A stretch of DNA of 64,000 nucleotides. Origin: Treponema sp. GTDB lineage: Bacteria; Spirochaetota; Spirochaetia; Treponematales; Treponemataceae. The DNA lies in contig JAZNAS010000108.1 of NCBI GenBank assembly GCA_045586625.1, positions 28,467-92,466 of the forward strand, given 5' to 3'. The notes beneath the pieces were generated by a model. That model saw nothing but the letters and a program-made list of their open reading frames with translations, was not told the DNA's origin and ran no database searches. The position numbers were made by a program, and so were the translations under genes. Numbering within the stretch: the stretch's first letter is position 1; each line of letters begins with the position of its first letter. This document shows, in pieces, positions 48,007 to 52,614 of the stretch.

Positions 48007-48047
48007 AAAAAATACGTCTCGATACTGCATGGAAGTAGCATCGAGAC
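48007..48047 (-). terminator. rho-independent terminator of the outer-membrane protein gene
   Basis: GTCTCGAT / ATCGAGAC stem, extendable to 11 of 13 bp. On the minus strand it is followed by GTATTTTTT. Confidence 0.6.
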
Positions 48048-48074: not shown

Positions 48075-49430
48075 TTATTTTTTCCAGGTGGCGGACAGGC
48101 GGATGTTGCCGTCAAGTACATCAATCCAGCTTTTGGGAGCCTGTAATGTCACTCCCAGCTGAACAGAGAACTCTTGGACAGGTGTAAATGTCATGCTGAA
48201 TCCAAGGTTTGAGAGCAACGGATCTTTGAATTTGTGGCTCTTTCCCGAAGTTTTTGGCGAGGATGTGGGAACATCCTCATCGTATGAAGCACTTTGTCTG
48301 TACTCATATGTTGCAGGGTCAAAGCTGAGACCTGCACCCATGCTGACCTTTTCATTCAGCTGGTAGGTTCCGGCAAGGTACAGGCGGGGAAGAACCACAA
48401 TGTCTGTTTGCTCCATGGTTTGGCTTGGCTCCTGGTTGCCGGCAACCCTCTGTGTACCTCCGCTTATCCACTTGTCGATGGAAGTCTGGATGTAGGCACG
48501 GGCTGCCAGAGTGAGTTTGTCCATAAACACCTTGCGCCCTGTGGTGTGGAGGGTTATGGTATTCTTTATCCTCTCGTCTGTGCGGTAGATATGCTCATCT
48601 ACTGTCTGGTCTTGGTTTACCTTCTGGTACATTTTTTCTGGCATGAAGCCATACTCAAAACCGTAGGTAAGCTGCCCTGACCATGCGAACTTTTCCGTGG
48701 GGAAGGTCACGCCAATTCCCAGCTCTCCAGAGGGAATGTACGCCTTGTAGGAACGGATTTCTTCGGGAAGGTTGCTTGAGAAGTGGGAACCTGCTACAGT
48801 GGTAAAGGTTCTCCATGCGTCAGAAATGGTAAAGCCAAAGTTGAGTGTTGGGGTGATTGCCCAGCCATCAGCAATATCCAGGCTTGTTCCCAGCATGATT
48901 GACGGACGGATGGACAGGCTCTTCTGGTCGGTCGTCAACTTCGAGTTCTCCTCCGTGTTCTCTCTGGTACCAGAGACATTGAGTCCCGTCCGCAGCCCAA
49001 GGTTTAGGTTTCCAACGGGAATGCCCACCAGTACATAGGCTGAGTGGTCGCTGATTTTCTTTGTGAGCTTGCTGGTGCTGTCCGTAGTCTCGTTTGTTGT
49101 GGAGGAAAACTCGCTGGTGCTACCTAAGGCTCCTGTATATGCAACTCCCACCCGGACAGAACCGGCCTCAAAGATTCCTCCGGCATTAAGCACGTTGCCA
49201 TTGAACGTGGTTACGGGCAAACCGTTGGAGAATCCCTCGCTGACATAGCCGTAGGAAGCACCAACCACTAGATTGCTGAAATCTATTCCGCTCCAGCCGG
49301 TGACGCTGACCACGTTGTCTAGGTCGGTGGAGAACAGTCCCACGGTGGAGTCCTTTAGTGGTGTGGCGGGCTGGGCGACAACACCGCTCATTGATAAGGC
49401 AAACAAAATTGCAAAAAATATCCTCTTCAT
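48075..49430 (-). CDS. putative outer-membrane beta-barrel protein
   Basis: Signal peptide MKRIFFAILFALSMSGVVAQP. The mature part is Gly/Ser/Thr/Tyr-rich with an alternating hydrophobic pattern. No family was recognised. Confidence 0.6.
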   Translation of the reverse strand: MKRIFFAILFALSMSGVVAQPATPLKDSTVGLFSTDLDNVVSVTGWSGIDFSNLVVGASYGYVSEGFSNGLPVTTFNGNVLNAGGIFEAGSVRVGVAYTGALGSTSEFSSTTNETTDSTSKLTKKISDHSAYVLVGIPVGNLNLGLRTGLNVSGTRENTEENSKLTTDQKSLSIRPSIMLGTSLDIADGWAITPTLNFGFTISDAWRTFTTVAGSHFSSNLPEEIRSYKAYIPSGELGIGVTFPTEKFAWSGQLTYGFEYGFMPEKMYQKVNQDQTVDEHIYRTDERIKNTITLHTTGRKVFMDKLTLAARAYIQTSIDKWISGGTQRVAGNQEPSQTMEQTDIVVLPRLYLAGTYQLNEKVSMGAGLSFDPATYEYRQSASYDEDVPTSSPKTSGKSHKFKDPLLSNLGFSMTFTPVQEFSVQLGVTLQAPKSWIDVLDGNIRLSATWKK

Positions 49431-49500: not shown

Positions 49501-52005
49501 TTACTGTGCTGACAATTTTTTGATGATTTCGGATACATCTATGGTGATGAACCTCATGCCGTCCAGATTGTCGTTTGTGTCGTGGAAACACTCGTAGAGG
49601 ATTCCGATAAGCTCGTCGTCCACCATCACCATGTCGGTGTAGCCAAAGTACCGCTGGCCCATCTTGCGAATCTGCACGTAGTAGCGGTCACTGCTCAATG
49701 GATTACCAGAACCAGTAGGTACGCTTATGGAATTGTCTGCAGCAAAGCTGACGGTTACCTGATTTCTCCCCTCATCTAAGAAATTGGTCCCACTATTTTT
49801 ACCACCTCCTTTGGGACTGGTAAAGGCAACCACACCCTTCTTGCTTCCGTCTCCGTCGGCAACCTTGAGGAGGGAGGTCTGGCTTGCACCACGACTTCCT
49901 CCACCCCACGGGTCATTTTGTACAGTGTACCAGTCTTCGGATACTGTGGCTCCCGAATACCGCCTCATTTCTATGGGGCCACTGGTATTTTTGCCTAGAC
50001 TCAAGATGGTGCCATCATCCAACTGGCATATCTGCCACTCACCGTTGCCCGAATTGGGAACCATTATGCTTCCATTCCTACTCCAGGTGGATGGTTCTCC
50101 GTTTCCATAGATGATATAGGTTGCGAAATTGGTGGTTCCCCCTCCTCCCTGCATGGGAACTGCCGTCATGCCTGCCTTCATGTTGGTGTTCGGCACGTCC
50201 TTGGTCAGGATGATGCCGTGACCGGGACAGGGCAGGTTGGCGTATCCGCCCTGTCCATTACCTGGATTGGTAAGTTCGCCGTCCTTTGTGTTCCATAGGT
50301 AGGAGTAGGTCTCTCTGGGCTTGACCATACCGTTGTCATCGGAAATGTCGGTGTCCTCAACCCAAGTTTCGCCGTAGTCGGAGCTGACGAACACACGGTT
50401 GGTGTTGGTATAGTCACTCATAGTGGTTCTTGCTGAGCTGGGACCGCCGCCTACGGCACCCATGTAGAGCTTGTTTCCAACTGTCCACAGTGCAGGATCT
50501 CCTAGATCGGTCTTGTGCGACATTGTATTTGTCTTCCCCGACTCGTCCCAGATGTTGTCCACGTCAATCATCTTGCGGCCCGGCCAGGTGGCACCGCCGT
50601 CGTCGGAGTACAGAATCAGGATGTCGCTGCCTCCGTTGCTCGTCCCGCAGTCGCCGTTGCCGTCATCCTCGCCACGATAGCGTACATCCATGGCGGCAAA
50701 TACCCTCGTCTTGCCGGAGGGCAGGGGCATGCTAATCAATGCGGGAATGCGGAAGGAGCCGCCATTTTTTGCGTTTCCTGTACCTACTCCGCCGTGGCTT
50801 GGACTTGTACCATCGCCTCCAGCGGTCACAGTCAGTGTTTCTCGCTGGGGAATTTGTGACGAGCCATCCCCGAATTTAAACGCATCAGTAAACACAGGGT
50901 CGCTGATGGGTCGCTTCACCAGCTGCTGGGAATAAATCTTTTCCGCCCAGTCTGGCTTCTCCTGTCCCACGTCGTCGTTTTCTGCCTCCGCATAGCTCTT
51001 TCTCTGCACCGTCAGGTAGGCCGGGTACACGGGATAGCCTGCTTCGTTGGTATACAGGGCGTTTGCCTGGATGGTTTGGTTCTCCTTGAACACCTGGGGG
51101 AGGGTTACTGTTTGCCCGTTGTCATCCACCCACTTCACGAAGGTGAAGTTTGCCGGAGCTTCGGGGGATTGGGGAATGCTGGTGAAAGTACCGATGTCCC
51201 CCTGATAGGTGGTCTGGAAGCCGGAGGTTCCCGCCCCTGTCCAGCTTACCGTTACGGTGACACGGCTGGACACGAATTTGTCATTCAGGTTGCTGAACTT
51301 GGACTTGTATACTTCCAATTGATTGTGTGGTACATAGATTTTGGTCGTTGATGGAATGGCGGATTCTTCTATTGTTGTGATGGAGCTGGCATCGCCCTCC
51401 AGAATCAGAGACTTCAGTCCGCTGCTTGCAAAGGCATTGGCTCCAATTGAAGTGACGGTGTTAGGGAGCGTCACAGAGACCAAACCTGTAGCATTCTGGA
51501 ATGCACCGTTGCTGATGGAAGTTACGCTGCTCGCGGATGTCAGATCAAGTTCGACCTTGCCAGAAGTAGAACTGAGTGCAGTCTTAAGAGCATTAAAGTC
51601 CACACTGTCGGTAATCAGGATTTCTATGGAATCATTACTAGTCAGATCGGTAATGGCCTCGGCTGCCTCTGCACTGCTCATCACCCGCTGTGTTAGAGCC
51701 CAGGTGGCATAAAGGGTGGTGTCGGCATTTAGTGTAAGCTCTTCACCATCGGAGTAGCTGATACCGCCACCGTCTGGCTGTGTATTCCAGCCAGTCCCAA
51801 TACCGCCCTCATTGGTGGTCAGCTCGTTGGCAGCTACAGCTACCTTTGCACCGGCGGCATAGATTTTGGTGGCAGGAACAGCAGCACCGGATGCCAGTGT
51901 GGTTCCCTCCGGTAGGTTTGCATTGTAGCTTAATGTGCGGGTTTCAATACCGTTGTTATGCGGGCATCCTGCAAGCAACAGGAGCAGCAGCAGGGGGATA
52001 GCCAC
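49501..52005 (-). CDS. surface lipoprotein exo-alpha-sialidase with Listeria-Bacteroides repeat and BspA-type LRR modules
   Basis: Lipobox LLLLLAGC. A Flg_new-like module is present (GWNTQPDGGG...LYATW), along with LRRs (ISNGAFQNATGLVSVTLPNTVTSIGANAFASSGLKSL). The sialidase region has FRIP (GGSFRIPALI) and Asp-boxes (YSDDGGATW, SSDYGETW). The GTG start has no Shine-Dalgarno; see the C10 tract finding. Confidence 0.85.
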   Translation of the reverse strand: MAIPLLLLLLLAGCPHNNGIETRTLSYNANLPEGTTLASGAAVPATKIYAAGAKVAVAANELTTNEGGIGTGWNTQPDGGGISYSDGEELTLNADTTLYATWALTQRVMSSAEAAEAITDLTSNDSIEILITDSVDFNALKTALSSTSGKVELDLTSASSVTSISNGAFQNATGLVSVTLPNTVTSIGANAFASSGLKSLILEGDASSITTIEESAIPSTTKIYVPHNQLEVYKSKFSNLNDKFVSSRVTVTVSWTGAGTSGFQTTYQGDIGTFTSIPQSPEAPANFTFVKWVDDNGQTVTLPQVFKENQTIQANALYTNEAGYPVYPAYLTVQRKSYAEAENDDVGQEKPDWAEKIYSQQLVKRPISDPVFTDAFKFGDGSSQIPQRETLTVTAGGDGTSPSHGGVGTGNAKNGGSFRIPALISMPLPSGKTRVFAAMDVRYRGEDDGNGDCGTSNGGSDILILYSDDGGATWPGRKMIDVDNIWDESGKTNTMSHKTDLGDPALWTVGNKLYMGAVGGGPSSARTTMSDYTNTNRVFVSSDYGETWVEDTDISDDNGMVKPRETYSYLWNTKDGELTNPGNGQGGYANLPCPGHGIILTKDVPNTNMKAGMTAVPMQGGGGTTNFATYIIYGNGEPSTWSRNGSIMVPNSGNGEWQICQLDDGTILSLGKNTSGPIEMRRYSGATVSEDWYTVQNDPWGGGSRGASQTSLLKVADGDGSKKGVVAFTSPKGGGKNSGTNFLDEGRNQVTVSFAADNSISVPTGSGNPLSSDRYYVQIRKMGQRYFGYTDMVMVDDELIGILYECFHDTNDNLDGMRFITIDVSEIIKKLSAQ

Positions 52006-52043
52006 CTTTAGAATGGTAGCTGTAAAATACCCCTCAGTCCGCC

Positions 52044-52139
52044 CTAATGTATATGAGGGGGGGGGGTATTTTGGCGAGTGGTTTTCAGGATTGTCTCGTC
52101 AGTCCTGAAGCTTGAGTGGTTCAATCGTAATCTACTCAT
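52044..52139 (-). CDS. 31-codon leader ORF, possibly the out-of-frame true 5' end of the sialidase gene
   Basis: GGAGG (52149-52145), then 5 nt, then ATG 52139. It encodes MSRLRLNHSSFRTDETILKTTRQNTPPPHIH and stops at TAG 52046-52044. It reads through the C10 tract. Confidence 0.45.
   Translation of the reverse strand: MSRLRLNHSSFRTDETILKTTRQNTPPPHIH
52057..52066. repeat. G10 (C10 on the coding strand) homopolymer
   Basis: Ten consecutive G at 52057-52066. This is the longest G/C run I saw in the window. Confidence 0.95.
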
Positions 52140-52158
52140 CAAAACCTCCAAAAAAATA

Positions 52159-52184
52159 CTTGTATACCAGAAGTAGTATACAAG
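52159..52184. promoter_or_regulatory. 9-bp perfect inverted repeat at the predicted transcription start of the sialidase leader
   Basis: CTTGTATAC-N8-GTATACAAG. Each arm contains the self-complementary GTATAC. On the minus strand it is followed by TATTTTTTT. Confidence 0.45.
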
Positions 52185-52187
52185 GAT

Positions 52188-52216
52188 ATTTTCACATGGA
52201 ATTTCCAATTTGTCAA
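52188..52216 (-). promoter_or_regulatory. strong sigma70-type promoter facing the sialidase gene
   Basis: Minus strand reads TTGACA (52216-52211), a 17-nt spacer ending in TGt, then GAAAAT (52193-52188). An A-rich UP-like tract lies upstream at 52221-52237. Confidence 0.55.
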
Positions 52217-52332
52217 ACATTTTTTTTATTTTTGATAGAAAATGGAGAATCAAGCTGTGCAAGTTACCGTCATTCCGTAGCAGGCCCCCAATGTATGTGA
52301 ATTCCATCAAAAAAAGCAAGGTGATGTCCATA

Positions 52333-52361
52333 TTTACATTGCCATAGAATTATGCTATGAT
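52333..52361 (+). promoter_or_regulatory. sigma70-type promoter of rpoZ-miaA
   Basis: TTTACA-17-TATGAT. AGGAG 52379-52383 precedes ATG 52389. Confidence 0.5.
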
Positions 52362-52388
52362 AAAAAGAATTCTTTTGTAGGAGTGTCC

Positions 52389-52580
52389 ATGATTTTTCCT
52401 TTGGAGCAGCTTGTTAAATTCAAAGATAATATTTATGAGATTACTTGTGCGGCCAGTCGTCGTGCCTACCAGCTTTCCAGGATTGACGATGAGGCTGTTA
52501 AGGAAAATGACGGTAAGGTGGTGTCCACTGCCGCCAAGCAGTTGTTTACCGACGAGGTAAAATATCGCATCGAGCAGTAA
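52389..52580 (+). CDS. rpoZ: DNA-directed RNA polymerase subunit omega
   Basis: MIFPLEQLVKFKDNIYEITCAASRRAYQLS. Confidence 0.85.
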   Translation: MIFPLEQLVKFKDNIYEITCAASRRAYQLSRIDDEAVKENDGKVVSTAAKQLFTDEVKYRIEQ

Positions 52581-52614
52581 TCCTGTGTGTTGTTATGAAG
52601 AGGGAGCCGGCCAA

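What the first reader, a model, noticed from the sequence alone, without database searches (positions are those of the whole stretch)
52003..52216. A C10 homopolymer separates a complete promoter+RBS+ATG from the sialidase reading frame: candidate slipped-strand ON/OFF switch
What the minus strand shows. A full expression signal is present: an A-rich UP-like tract, TTGACA-17-(TGt)GAAAAT at 52216-52188, then GGAGG (52149-52145), 5 nt, and ATG 52139. That ATG opens only a 31-codon ORF. The ORF runs through a C10 run (G10 at 52057-52066 on the given strand) and stops at TAG 52046-52044. The 834-codon sialidase frame is already open from 52098, that is, across the tract. Its first usable start is GTG 52005, which has no Shine-Dalgarno and gives a signal peptide with no charged n-region. 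The distance from ATG 52139 to GTG 52005 is 134 nt (3n+2). C11 or C8 would therefore fuse the RBS-equipped ATG to the sialidase frame with no intervening stop, giving ...QNTPPPPSYTLGRTEGYFTATILKVAIPLLLLLLLAGC.... Why it matters. Under a uniform-base model I estimate only about 0.1 G/C runs of 10 or more in 64 kb, so the tract is unlikely to be chance. Homopolymer-length phase variation of surface genes is established in Neisseria, Haemophilus and Campylobacter, and for poly-G tracts at Treponema pallidum tpr promoters. Caveats. A fused product would place the lipoprotein signal about 45 residues from the N-terminus, which is unusual. A leader-peptide/uORF role and a homopolymer sequencing error are both live alternatives.
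Basis: partly seen in the sequence, partly recalled or inferred. Interest (0 to 1): 0.72.

Follow-up and report, generated by a model that had tools for sequence, protein, structure and literature searches.

The report
Poly-C on/off switch in Treponema sialidase gene
A run of ten C's near the start of a surface sialidase-like lipoprotein gene in an uncultured gut Treponema puts the gene out of frame here; related strains carry runs of 8 to 12 C's and in-frame or out-of-frame copies, the classic but here undescribed signature of a slipped-strand on/off switch.

Summary
On the minus strand a conserved promoter, GGAGG and ATG 52139 open a 31-codon ORF. It runs through C10 (52066-52057) and stops at TAG 52046-52044, one base out of frame with the 834-codon ORF.

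Orthologues show that ATG 52139 is the native start. Fourteen related proteins begin MSRL.LNHS.F...TPPP/YPPP...ILK-VALPLLL..LAGC, the same leader read straight through the tract. Seventeen related loci all keep the tract, at lengths 8, 9, 10, 11 and 12. Single 90%-identity protein clusters contain both long (ON) and short (OFF) gene calls. Two contigs identical over 5,267 bp differ only in C9 versus C12.

The best explanation is slipped-strand phase variation inside the extended signal-peptide region of an LRR plus sialidase-fold lipoprotein. The window is in the OFF state; C11 or C8 would switch it ON.

Caveats:
- All assemblies of the window's own lineage are C10/OFF.
- No read-level data were available, so switching in this strain is inferred.

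The nearest published analogue is the poly-C tract of Gardnerella nanH3. This is a new member of a known kind, of moderate interest.

The parts
52217..52236 (-). A-rich UP-like tract upstream of the -35 hexamer. Homology between loci from different genomic contexts begins about here.
   Evidence: Direct reading; alignment of 17 loci.
52188..52216 (-). Sigma-70-type promoter: TTGACA, 17 nt, TGtGAAAAT (extended -10).
   Evidence: Scan: 10/12 matches with TG. The -35 hexamer is invariant in all lineages. The transcription start was not determined.
52159..52184 (-). Conserved 5'-UTR hairpin or palindrome CTTGTATAC-N8-GTATACAAG. In this lineage it is followed by T7.
   Evidence: RNA fold -11.9 kcal/mol, z -2.8. 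Conserved in L001 (-17.3) and L083 (-10.6). Flagged as terminator-like only in the window lineage. Role unknown.
52145..52149 (-). Shine-Dalgarno GGAGG, 5 nt before the ATG.
   Evidence: Direct reading; conserved as GGAGGTTTTRATG in the related loci.
52137..52139 (-). Native start codon ATG of the lipoprotein gene.
   Evidence: Fourteen orthologous proteins start here with a homologous leader, MSRL.LNHS.F....
52044..52139 (-). Truncated product of the present C10 (OFF) state: 31 codons plus TAG (MSRLRLNHSSFRTDETILKTTRQNTPPPHIH*).
   Evidence: Translation.
52057..52066 (-). C10 homopolymer (G10 on the + strand), the switch element, at codons 25-28 of the native ORF. ON lengths for these flanks are C11 or C8.
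   Evidence: Lengths 8-12 occur in related loci.
52024..52072 (-). Inverted repeat AAAATACCCC ... GGGGTATTTT enclosing the tract and the OFF-state stop codon.
   Evidence: Hairpin predicted in all lineages (window -20.7 kcal/mol, z -3.7). Function unexplained.
52006..52056 (-). Continuation of the leader in the sialidase frame (SYTLGRTEGYFTATILK). It supplies the charged n-region residues (R, E, K) before the hydrophobic core.
   Evidence: Matches YVLKRAEGYFAATILK of ON orthologues. pN/pS is like that of the mature protein.
52003..52005 (-). GTG, the fallback start used by gene callers for the 834-aa short form. It has no Shine-Dalgarno and leaves no charged n-region.
   Evidence: Short forms MAIPLLL/MALPLLL occur in the database.
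51964..51975 (-). Lipobox L-A-G-C (the lipoprotein signal peptidase II site).
   Evidence: Direct reading of the translation; G and C invariant in the leader alignment.
49501..52005 (-). Main reading frame of 834 codons. It contains a List_Bact-type repeat, a BspA-type LRR (residues 156-241) and a C-terminal sialidase-fold beta-propeller (about residues 404-834, with FRIP and two Asp boxes).
   Evidence: Pfam LRR_5 1.2e-11; profile versus PDB sialidases 3e-7; Foldseek top 50 are nearly all GH33 sialidases or trans-sialidases (one fusion-construct entry), best E 1.6e-15.
48075..49430 (-). Downstream gene, 70 nt after the stop, with its own GGAG. It encodes a TDE2508-like outer-membrane beta-barrel and is probably co-transcribed.
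   Evidence: NCBIfam NF049865, E 4.5e-30 but below the curated cut-off. No promoter-like site between the genes. The pairing is conserved in all related loci.

Best explanation
The gene's native start is ATG 52139. It encodes an unusually long lipoprotein signal peptide of about 59 residues. Its n-region contains Thr-Pro-Pro-Pro, written as a pure C run. Slipped-strand mispairing during replication changes the run's length.

With these flanks, C11 (or C8) keeps the frame and gives a lipidated, presumably surface-exposed LRR plus sialidase-fold protein. C10, the state in this window, ends translation after 31 codons at TAG 52046-52044, so the gene is OFF. At most it is weakly expressed from the SD-less GTG 52005.

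Shown here:
- the anatomy of the locus;
- homology of the leader on both sides of the tract to in-frame orthologues;
- tract lengths of 8-12, and both ON and OFF alleles, among close relatives.

Inferred:
- reversibility and rate of switching in this strain;
- surface location and enzymatic activity of the product;
- a polar effect on the downstream TDE2508-like outer-membrane protein gene, through loss of translation over 2.5 kb of a probable operon.
For: 1. Anatomy confirmed.

2. The leader is native coding sequence. Orthologues P0002, P0005, P0006, P0008 and P0010 begin MSRLHLNHSNFRAETVLRTAPSKYPPPYVLKRAEGYFAATILKVALPLLLILLLAGC. The window matches this upstream of the tract in the ATG frame and downstream of it in the sialidase frame. 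Leader pN/pS is 0.35-0.66, like the mature part at 0.35-0.56.

3. DNA of 17 related loci shows the tract present in all, at lengths 8 (L093), 9 (L085), 10, 11 (L094, L090/91) and 12 (L086). The reading frame is intact only in L001, L087, L088, L089, L083 and L084.

4. L085 and L086 are identical over 5,267 bp except for C9 versus C12. L094 has the L001-type flanks (one leader substitution) but C11 instead of C10.

5. Within single 90% clusters, long and short gene calls coexist. This includes SNTPPPY long forms, which imply C11 in the flank type seen as C9, C10 and C12. About 14 sequences are ON, against 17 short-start and 7 further-truncated.

6. OFF alleles fall in both wrong phases, as expected for random slippage.

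7. The ORF in the OFF lineage is intact, with dN/dS 0.23.

8. A distant family member, P0016, has an ordinary 21-residue lipoprotein signal with no tract, so the extension is not needed for export.

9. Published precedents exist: Gardnerella nanH3 poly-C and T. pallidum poly-G tracts.
Against: - The window's own lineage (window, L002, L095/L096) is C10/OFF in every assembly, even though window and L095 differ by 4% over 5.5 kb. No ON allele of this exact lineage was found.
- Only consensus assemblies were available, so heterogeneity within a population is unobserved.
- Some 'independent' assemblies may come from the same samples.
- All ON alleles have exactly three prolines, so the usable length range is narrow.
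- Sequencing platforms could not be checked.
Confidence: 0.8

Rival explanations
1. Fixed frameshift. In this lineage the gene has simply been inactivated at a mutational hotspot and is decaying. The tract has no switching role here.
For: C10/OFF in all assemblies of the lineage, across two sub-variants that are 4% diverged. OFF alleles are the majority in the family census.
Against: The 834-codon frame is intact in all three lineage variants, with dN/dS 0.23. Both leader halves remain open and homologous to ON alleles. A C10 run remains one slip away from ON. Other flank types show both ON and OFF alleles.
Confidence: 0.08
2. Recoding. The C10 genotype is expressed through transcriptional slippage, or -1 ribosomal slippage on the C run, possibly helped by the flanking hairpin. 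The frameshift would then be programmed rather than an OFF state.
For: A homopolymer allows perfect re-pairing after a -1 slip. A conserved inverted repeat encloses the tract. The lineage is stably C10.
Against: Many relatives are in frame at the DNA level. OFF alleles occur in both the -1 and +1 phases, which no single recoding direction can rescue. The hairpin includes the slip site itself instead of lying downstream of it. No known recoding family matched (Rfam).
Confidence: 0.05
3. Regulatory leader peptide (uORF). The 31-codon ORF with its PPP motif is a separate sensor peptide, for example EF-P or stalling dependent, that controls initiation at GTG 52005.
For: The short ORF has a strong RBS. 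A polyproline motif is present. Its stop lies 39 nt before the GTG.
Against: In 14 orthologous sequences the 'leader' is fused in frame to the lipoprotein. The region between the tract and the GTG is conserved in the sialidase frame. The peptide tails after the tract differ between OFF alleles (HIH*, LCFKAG*, MF*). The GTG has no SD and lies in a local stem.
Confidence: 0.04
4. Homopolymer sequencing or assembly error. The true sequence would be C11.
For: Homopolymers are error-prone, and the window comes from a metagenome-assembled contig.
Against: The identical C10 occurs in L002 (SRR24653716) and in L095/L096 (ERZ27317783 / SRR14556446). Lengths are reproducible within other lineages. Differences of up to 3 nt occur between otherwise identical contigs.
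Confidence: 0.02

Closest known systems
Gardnerella piotii nanH3 sialidase poly-C tract (Kurukulasuriya, Patterson & Hill; bioRxiv 10.1101/2020.09.16.300947, read)
   Same: A poly-C run of 8-14 lies about 100 nt into the ORF of an exported sialidase. Most lengths give truncated peptides of 37-44 aa, and only every third length gives the full protein. The modal length differs between strains.
   Different: The phylum differs (Actinomycetota versus Spirochaetota), and the genes share no detectable sequence homology beyond the GH33 fold. In nanH3 the tract follows the signal peptide. Here it sits inside an extended n-region, before the hydrophobic core and lipobox. Variation within colonies was shown experimentally for nanH3 but not here.
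Treponema pallidum poly-G tracts of tprE/G/J, tprL and tp0126 (Giacani et al.; PMC7864442)
   Same: Same genus. A G/C homopolymer of about 7-12 nt varies by slipped-strand mispairing and controls an outer-surface protein gene.
   Different: Those tracts lie in promoters and act on transcription. Here the tract is 73 nt inside the ORF and acts on the reading frame. The hosts are a pathogen versus an uncultured gut commensal.
Repeat tracts in signal-peptide coding regions: Neisseria opa (CTCTT) and Helicobacter pylori oipA/sabA (CT). Cited from general knowledge, not checked here.
   Same: The repeat is placed in the leader-coding part, so length changes toggle the frame without altering the mature protein.
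   Different: Those are penta- or dinucleotide repeats in outer-membrane beta-barrel proteins. Here it is a mononucleotide run in a lipoprotein signal peptide.

Membership tests
Contingency locus (slipped-strand phase-variable gene, translational type) | Simple-sequence repeat inside the coding region near the 5' end | tested here: met
   C10 at codons 25-28 of the native ORF.
Contingency locus (slipped-strand phase-variable gene, translational type) | Repeat length is polymorphic among closely related strains while the flanks are conserved | tested here: met
   Lengths 8-12 in related loci. L085 and L086 have 0 mismatches in 5,267 bp but C9 versus C12.
Contingency locus (slipped-strand phase-variable gene, translational type) | Length changes switch between a full-length and a truncated product | tested here: met
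   In-silico translation gives 853-878 aa against 29-33 aa. Long and short gene calls occur within the same 90% clusters.
Contingency locus (slipped-strand phase-variable gene, translational type) | Length heterogeneity within one population, and reversible high-frequency switching | not testable with these tools
   Only consensus assemblies were available. The window lineage is C10 in all of them.
Contingency locus (slipped-strand phase-variable gene, translational type) | The product is a surface or host-interaction molecule | tested here: inconclusive
   The lipobox LAGC, BspA-type LRR and sialidase fold fit. Localisation was not tested.
GH33 exo-alpha-sialidase | Six-bladed beta-propeller fold with an FRIP motif and Asp boxes | tested here: met
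   SFRIPAL, SDDGGATW and SSDYGETW are in the sequence. The family profile hits PDB sialidases at 3e-7. Foldseek top hits are all sialidases, E 1.6e-15, from a moderate model (pLDDT 64.7). Pfam BNR_2 is below cut-off.
GH33 exo-alpha-sialidase | Complete catalytic set (Arg triad, Tyr/Glu nucleophile pair, Asp acid/base) and enzymatic activity | not tested
   Many invariant R, D, E and Y columns exist but were not mapped onto a solved active site.
Bacterial lipoprotein | Hydrophobic core followed by a lipobox [LVI][ASTVI][GAS]C | tested here: met
   ...VAIPLLLLLLL-AGC; G and C are invariant in the leader alignment.
T. pallidum-type promoter poly-G switch | The tract lies within or next to the promoter and modulates transcription | tested here: not met
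   The tract is 122 nt downstream of the -10 hexamer and 73 nt downstream of the conserved ATG.
Regulatory leader peptide / uORF | A separate short ORF with its own conserved stop in all relatives | tested here: not met
   The leader is fused to the main ORF in 14 relatives. OFF-state tails and stops differ between alleles.
Programmed frameshift / transcriptional slippage gene | The same frame offset is conserved across orthologues | tested here: not met
   In-frame alleles are common, and OFF alleles occur in both phases.

The most novel reading that the evidence does not exclude
The promoter, hairpin and long leader with its embedded C tract and flanking inverted repeat form a portable switch module. 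This module recombines among alleles and genomic contexts. Through translational polarity it toggles a two-gene surface unit: the LRR-sialidase lipoprotein plus a TDE2508-like outer-membrane barrel. A distant family member carries an unrelated G10 in its 5' coding region, and Gardnerella nanH3 is a convergent case. Together these would make secreted sialidases recurrent targets of contingency switching in host-associated bacteria, commensal gut spirochaetes included.
Probability: 0.25. Interest if true: 0.6.

Novelty: new member of a known kind. Interest (0 to 1): 0.45.

Why it matters
This is a clean, testable contingency locus in an uncultured gut Treponema. The source is probably ruminant, judging by record names such as RGIG and XIEF21; that reading rests on my own knowledge and was not verified. 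In treponemes, phase variation has so far been documented essentially for T. pallidum promoter poly-G tracts.

There is a practical annotation point. Gene callers give the OFF alleles a false GTG or ATG start and a defective signal peptide. About 60% of database entries for this family are therefore mis-started or silently out of frame.

Biologically, on/off control of a mucin- or glycan-targeting sialidase with an adhesin-like LRR domain could shape host-glycan foraging, adhesion, and exposure to immunity or phage in gut communities.

Tried and rejected
- Scan of GTDB species representatives with the family alignment. It returned only distant relatives (two Treponema MAGs at 37-40% identity) plus unrelated repeat proteins. 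The window's own species was not retrieved.
- JGI metagenome scan with a leader DNA pattern: no hits.
- JGI metagenome scan with protein patterns: no confirmed relative.
- Profile search with the fused leader. It returned a single 61-aa OFF-state leader ORF (P0151) and missed the known long forms, so it could not be used as a census.
- Single-sequence phmmer against PDB found only LRR proteins. The sialidase link needed the family profile and a structure search.
- Rfam on 51800-52600 gave only sub-threshold miRNA noise.
- NCBIfam gave nothing useful for the main protein.
- The 5'-UTR hairpin as an intrinsic terminator or attenuator: rejected as a general feature, because the T run is absent in other lineages.
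- Homology search on the distant L004 protein. Whether that G10 varies is unresolved.
Full report
**1. The observation**

- An A-rich tract lies upstream of the promoter.
- TTGACA is at 52216-52211, followed by a 17-nt spacer and TGtGAAAAT ending at 52188. This is also the top promoter-like site in the consensus scan (10/12, with TG).
- GGAGG is at 52149-52145 and ATG at 52139.
- A run of ten C's lies at 52066-52057 (G10 on the given strand).
- TAG is at 52046-52044, so the ATG opens a 31-codon ORF.
- The other frame is closed by TGA 52101-52099 and then open to 49501. Its first start is GTG 52005, giving 834 aa.

The tract is the only homopolymer of 9 or more bases in the 64 kb.

As a chance event it is only moderately unlikely. 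P is about 0.30 under an order-1 Markov model and 0.027 under order 3. The case therefore rests on comparative evidence, not on composition.

**2. The gene and its neighbours**

The 834-aa frame has a lipobox (…PLLLLLLLAGC) and a BspA-type LRR (Pfam LRR_5, 1.2e-11). Its C-terminal domain carries SFRIPAL and two Asp boxes.

Evidence on the sialidase label:
- Single-sequence searches do not call it a sialidase.
- A profile of the family hits solved sialidases at 3e-7.
- An AlphaFold model (pLDDT 64.7) gives almost only GH33 sialidases and trans-sialidases among the top 50 Foldseek hits, best E 1.6e-15.

So 'sialidase fold' is supported. Catalysis is untested.

Seventy nucleotides downstream lies a 451-aa TDE2508-like outer-membrane beta-barrel gene (NCBIfam E 4.5e-30, below the curated cut-off). 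It has its own GGAG and there is no promoter-like site between the two genes. The pair is conserved in every related locus, so it is probably an operon.

Upstream and divergent are rpoZ and miaA. The window comes from a 101.8-kb NCBI contig. Identical or near-identical housekeeping proteins are labelled Treponema sp. or Spirochaetaceae MAG.

**3. The leader is native coding sequence**

Orthologues come in two gene-call forms.
- Long forms begin MSRLHLNHSNFRAETVLRTAPSKYPPPYVLKRAEGYFAATILKVALPLLLILLLAGC. A second lineage has MSRFRFNHSNFRTVDAILKTTQSNTPPPDVLK….
- Short forms begin MALPLLLILLLAGC.

The window's ATG-frame peptide (MSRLRLNHSSFRTDETILKTTRQNTPPP) matches the long form up to the tract. 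Its sialidase-frame peptide (SYTLGRTEGYFTATILKVAIPLL…) matches the long form after the tract. The window is therefore a long-form gene that is one base short.

Codon-level comparison gives pN/pS of 0.35-0.66 in the leader, the same range as the first 250 mature codons at 0.35-0.56. The leader is thus translated, in the fused reading.

It also supplies the charged n-region residues that the GTG-initiated form lacks. A distant member, P0016, has an ordinary 21-residue lipoprotein signal and no tract. The extension is therefore an add-on, not an export requirement.

**4. Tract variation in related DNA**

I fetched 17 related loci. All carry the tract at the same place.

| Loci | Tract | State |
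|---|---|---|
| L093 | C8 | OFF |
| L085 | C9 | OFF |
| L092 | C10 | OFF |
| window, L002, L095, L096 | C10 | OFF |
| L001, L087, L088, L089, L083, L084 | C10 | ON |
| L094, L090, L091 | C11 | OFF |
| L086 | C12 | OFF |

Small indels in the flanks mean the ON length is C10 for some flank types and C11 for others.

Two comparisons are the most telling.
- L085 and L086, from different runs, are identical over 5,267 bp apart from C9 versus C12.
- L094 has L001-type flanks but C11 instead of C10.

OFF alleles occur in both wrong phases: -1 in the window lineage and L092, and +1 in L094, L085, L086, L090 and L093. That is what random slippage predicts, and no single programmed frameshift could rescue both.

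**5. Census at the protein level**

Four 90%-identity clusters each contain both long and short members. For example, the P0011 cluster has short P0011 and P0173, and long P0168 and P0170. The long members read …APSNTPPPYVLK…, which implies C11 in exactly the flank type seen as C9, C10 and C12 at the DNA level.

In total there are about 14 distinct ON sequences. Against these stand 17 that start at the fallback codon and 7 that start further downstream. All ON forms have exactly three prolines.

**6. The window's own lineage**

The window, L002 and L095/L096 are all C10/OFF. L095 and L096 may come from the same sample. Window and L095 differ by 4% over 5.5 kb.

This is the main caveat, because no ON allele of this lineage was seen. 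The evidence nonetheless argues against a decayed pseudogene:
- The 834-codon frame is intact in all three variants, with dN/dS 0.23.
- Both halves of the leader are open and conserved.
- The gene is mosaic. Its first 200 codons have pS 0.013, against 0.25-0.32 in the sialidase domain. This points to ongoing recombination with functional alleles.

**7. Mechanism proposed**

The tract changes length by slipped-strand mispairing during replication. Lengths that keep the frame give the long-signal lipoprotein; here those are C11 or C8. Other lengths terminate translation after 29-33 codons.

GTG 52005 has no Shine-Dalgarno, lies in a local stem, and would give a signal peptide with no charged n-region. 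OFF therefore probably means little or no exported protein.

With 2.5 kb left untranslated, polarity on the downstream outer-membrane protein gene is plausible but untested.

Confidence in this account is 0.8.

**8. Comparison with known systems**

The closest published case is Gardnerella nanH3. It has a poly-C run of 8-14 about 100 nt into a sialidase ORF, just after the signal peptide. Most lengths give 37-44-aa truncations. The design and the type of gene are the same, but the phylum is different and the genes are not homologous beyond the fold.

Within Treponema, the documented homopolymer switches are poly-G tracts in T. pallidum promoters. The tract here is inside the ORF, so it does not belong to that class.

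It fits the general class of translational contingency loci with the repeat in the leader-coding region. It is a new member of a known kind.

**9. Things left unexplained**

- A conserved inverted repeat (AAAATACCCC … GGGGTATTTT, 52072-52024) encloses the tract and the OFF-state stop codon in all lineages.
- A conserved palindrome or hairpin lies between the -10 hexamer and the RBS.
- A distant Treponema homologue, L004, has its own G10 in the 5' coding region behind a similar promoter and UTR. Its relatives show poly-Gly linkers of varying length.

Noticed in passing
window 52024-52072 (minus strand); same place in L001, L085, L086, L090, L092, L093, L094, L083: An inverted repeat, AAAATACCCC ... 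GGGGTATTTT, encloses the C tract and the OFF-state stop codon. A hairpin is predicted in every lineage (window -20.7 kcal/mol, z -3.7). It could affect slippage at the DNA level or translation at the RNA level. It could also be a by-product of conserved amino acids.
   Followed up: partly
window 52159-52184 (minus strand): A conserved palindrome or 5'-UTR hairpin, CTTGTATAC-N8-GTATACAAG, lies between the -10 hexamer and the RBS. It is present in all lineages. L095 has matching T and A insertions that lengthen the stem. Only in the window lineage is it followed by T7-T8, which makes it terminator-like. It could be an operator or an mRNA-stabilising 5' stem.
   Followed up: partly
L004 5811-5820 (CAUURR010000002.1, uncultured Treponema sp.): A distant homologue (527 aa, 40% identity to the sialidase domain, followed by a 497-aa ORF) has a G10 on its coding strand, at about codons 45-48. 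It sits behind a similar TTGACA...CTTGTATACC...GGAGGTTTT architecture. Its relatives have poly-Gly runs of 3 to 11 residues after the lipobox. This may be an independent homopolymer switch.
   Followed up: partly
window 49501-52005 compared with L002 and L095: The gene is mosaic. The first 200 codons are nearly identical between strains (pS 0.013), while the sialidase domain differs strongly (pS 0.25-0.32). Across the family, the same N-terminal ~100 residues are joined to different middle and C-terminal parts (57-84% identity).
   Followed up: partly
window 52217-52600, and loci L001, L083, L085, L093: The operon, with its promoter, sits in at least two genomic contexts. In the window, L083 and L095 it is divergent from rpoZ-miaA. 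In L001, L085, L088, L089 and L092 it lies next to a formate-tetrahydrofolate ligase gene. Homology between the contexts starts at the A tract just upstream of the -35 hexamer.
   Followed up: no
window 48075-49430 (minus strand): The partner gene encodes a TDE2508-like outer-membrane beta-barrel (E 4.5e-30, below the NCBIfam cut-off). It is always paired with the sialidase-LRR lipoprotein. A terminator-like hairpin with a T run follows it at about 48010-48046 (judged by eye).
   Followed up: no
public protein entries P0001, P0003, P0007, P0009, P0011, P0015, P0152, P0153, P0160 and others: Gene callers, including NCBI's on MAG records, start OFF alleles at the internal GTG or ATG, or further downstream. 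Database entries for this family therefore often have false starts and hide the frameshift.
   Followed up: yes
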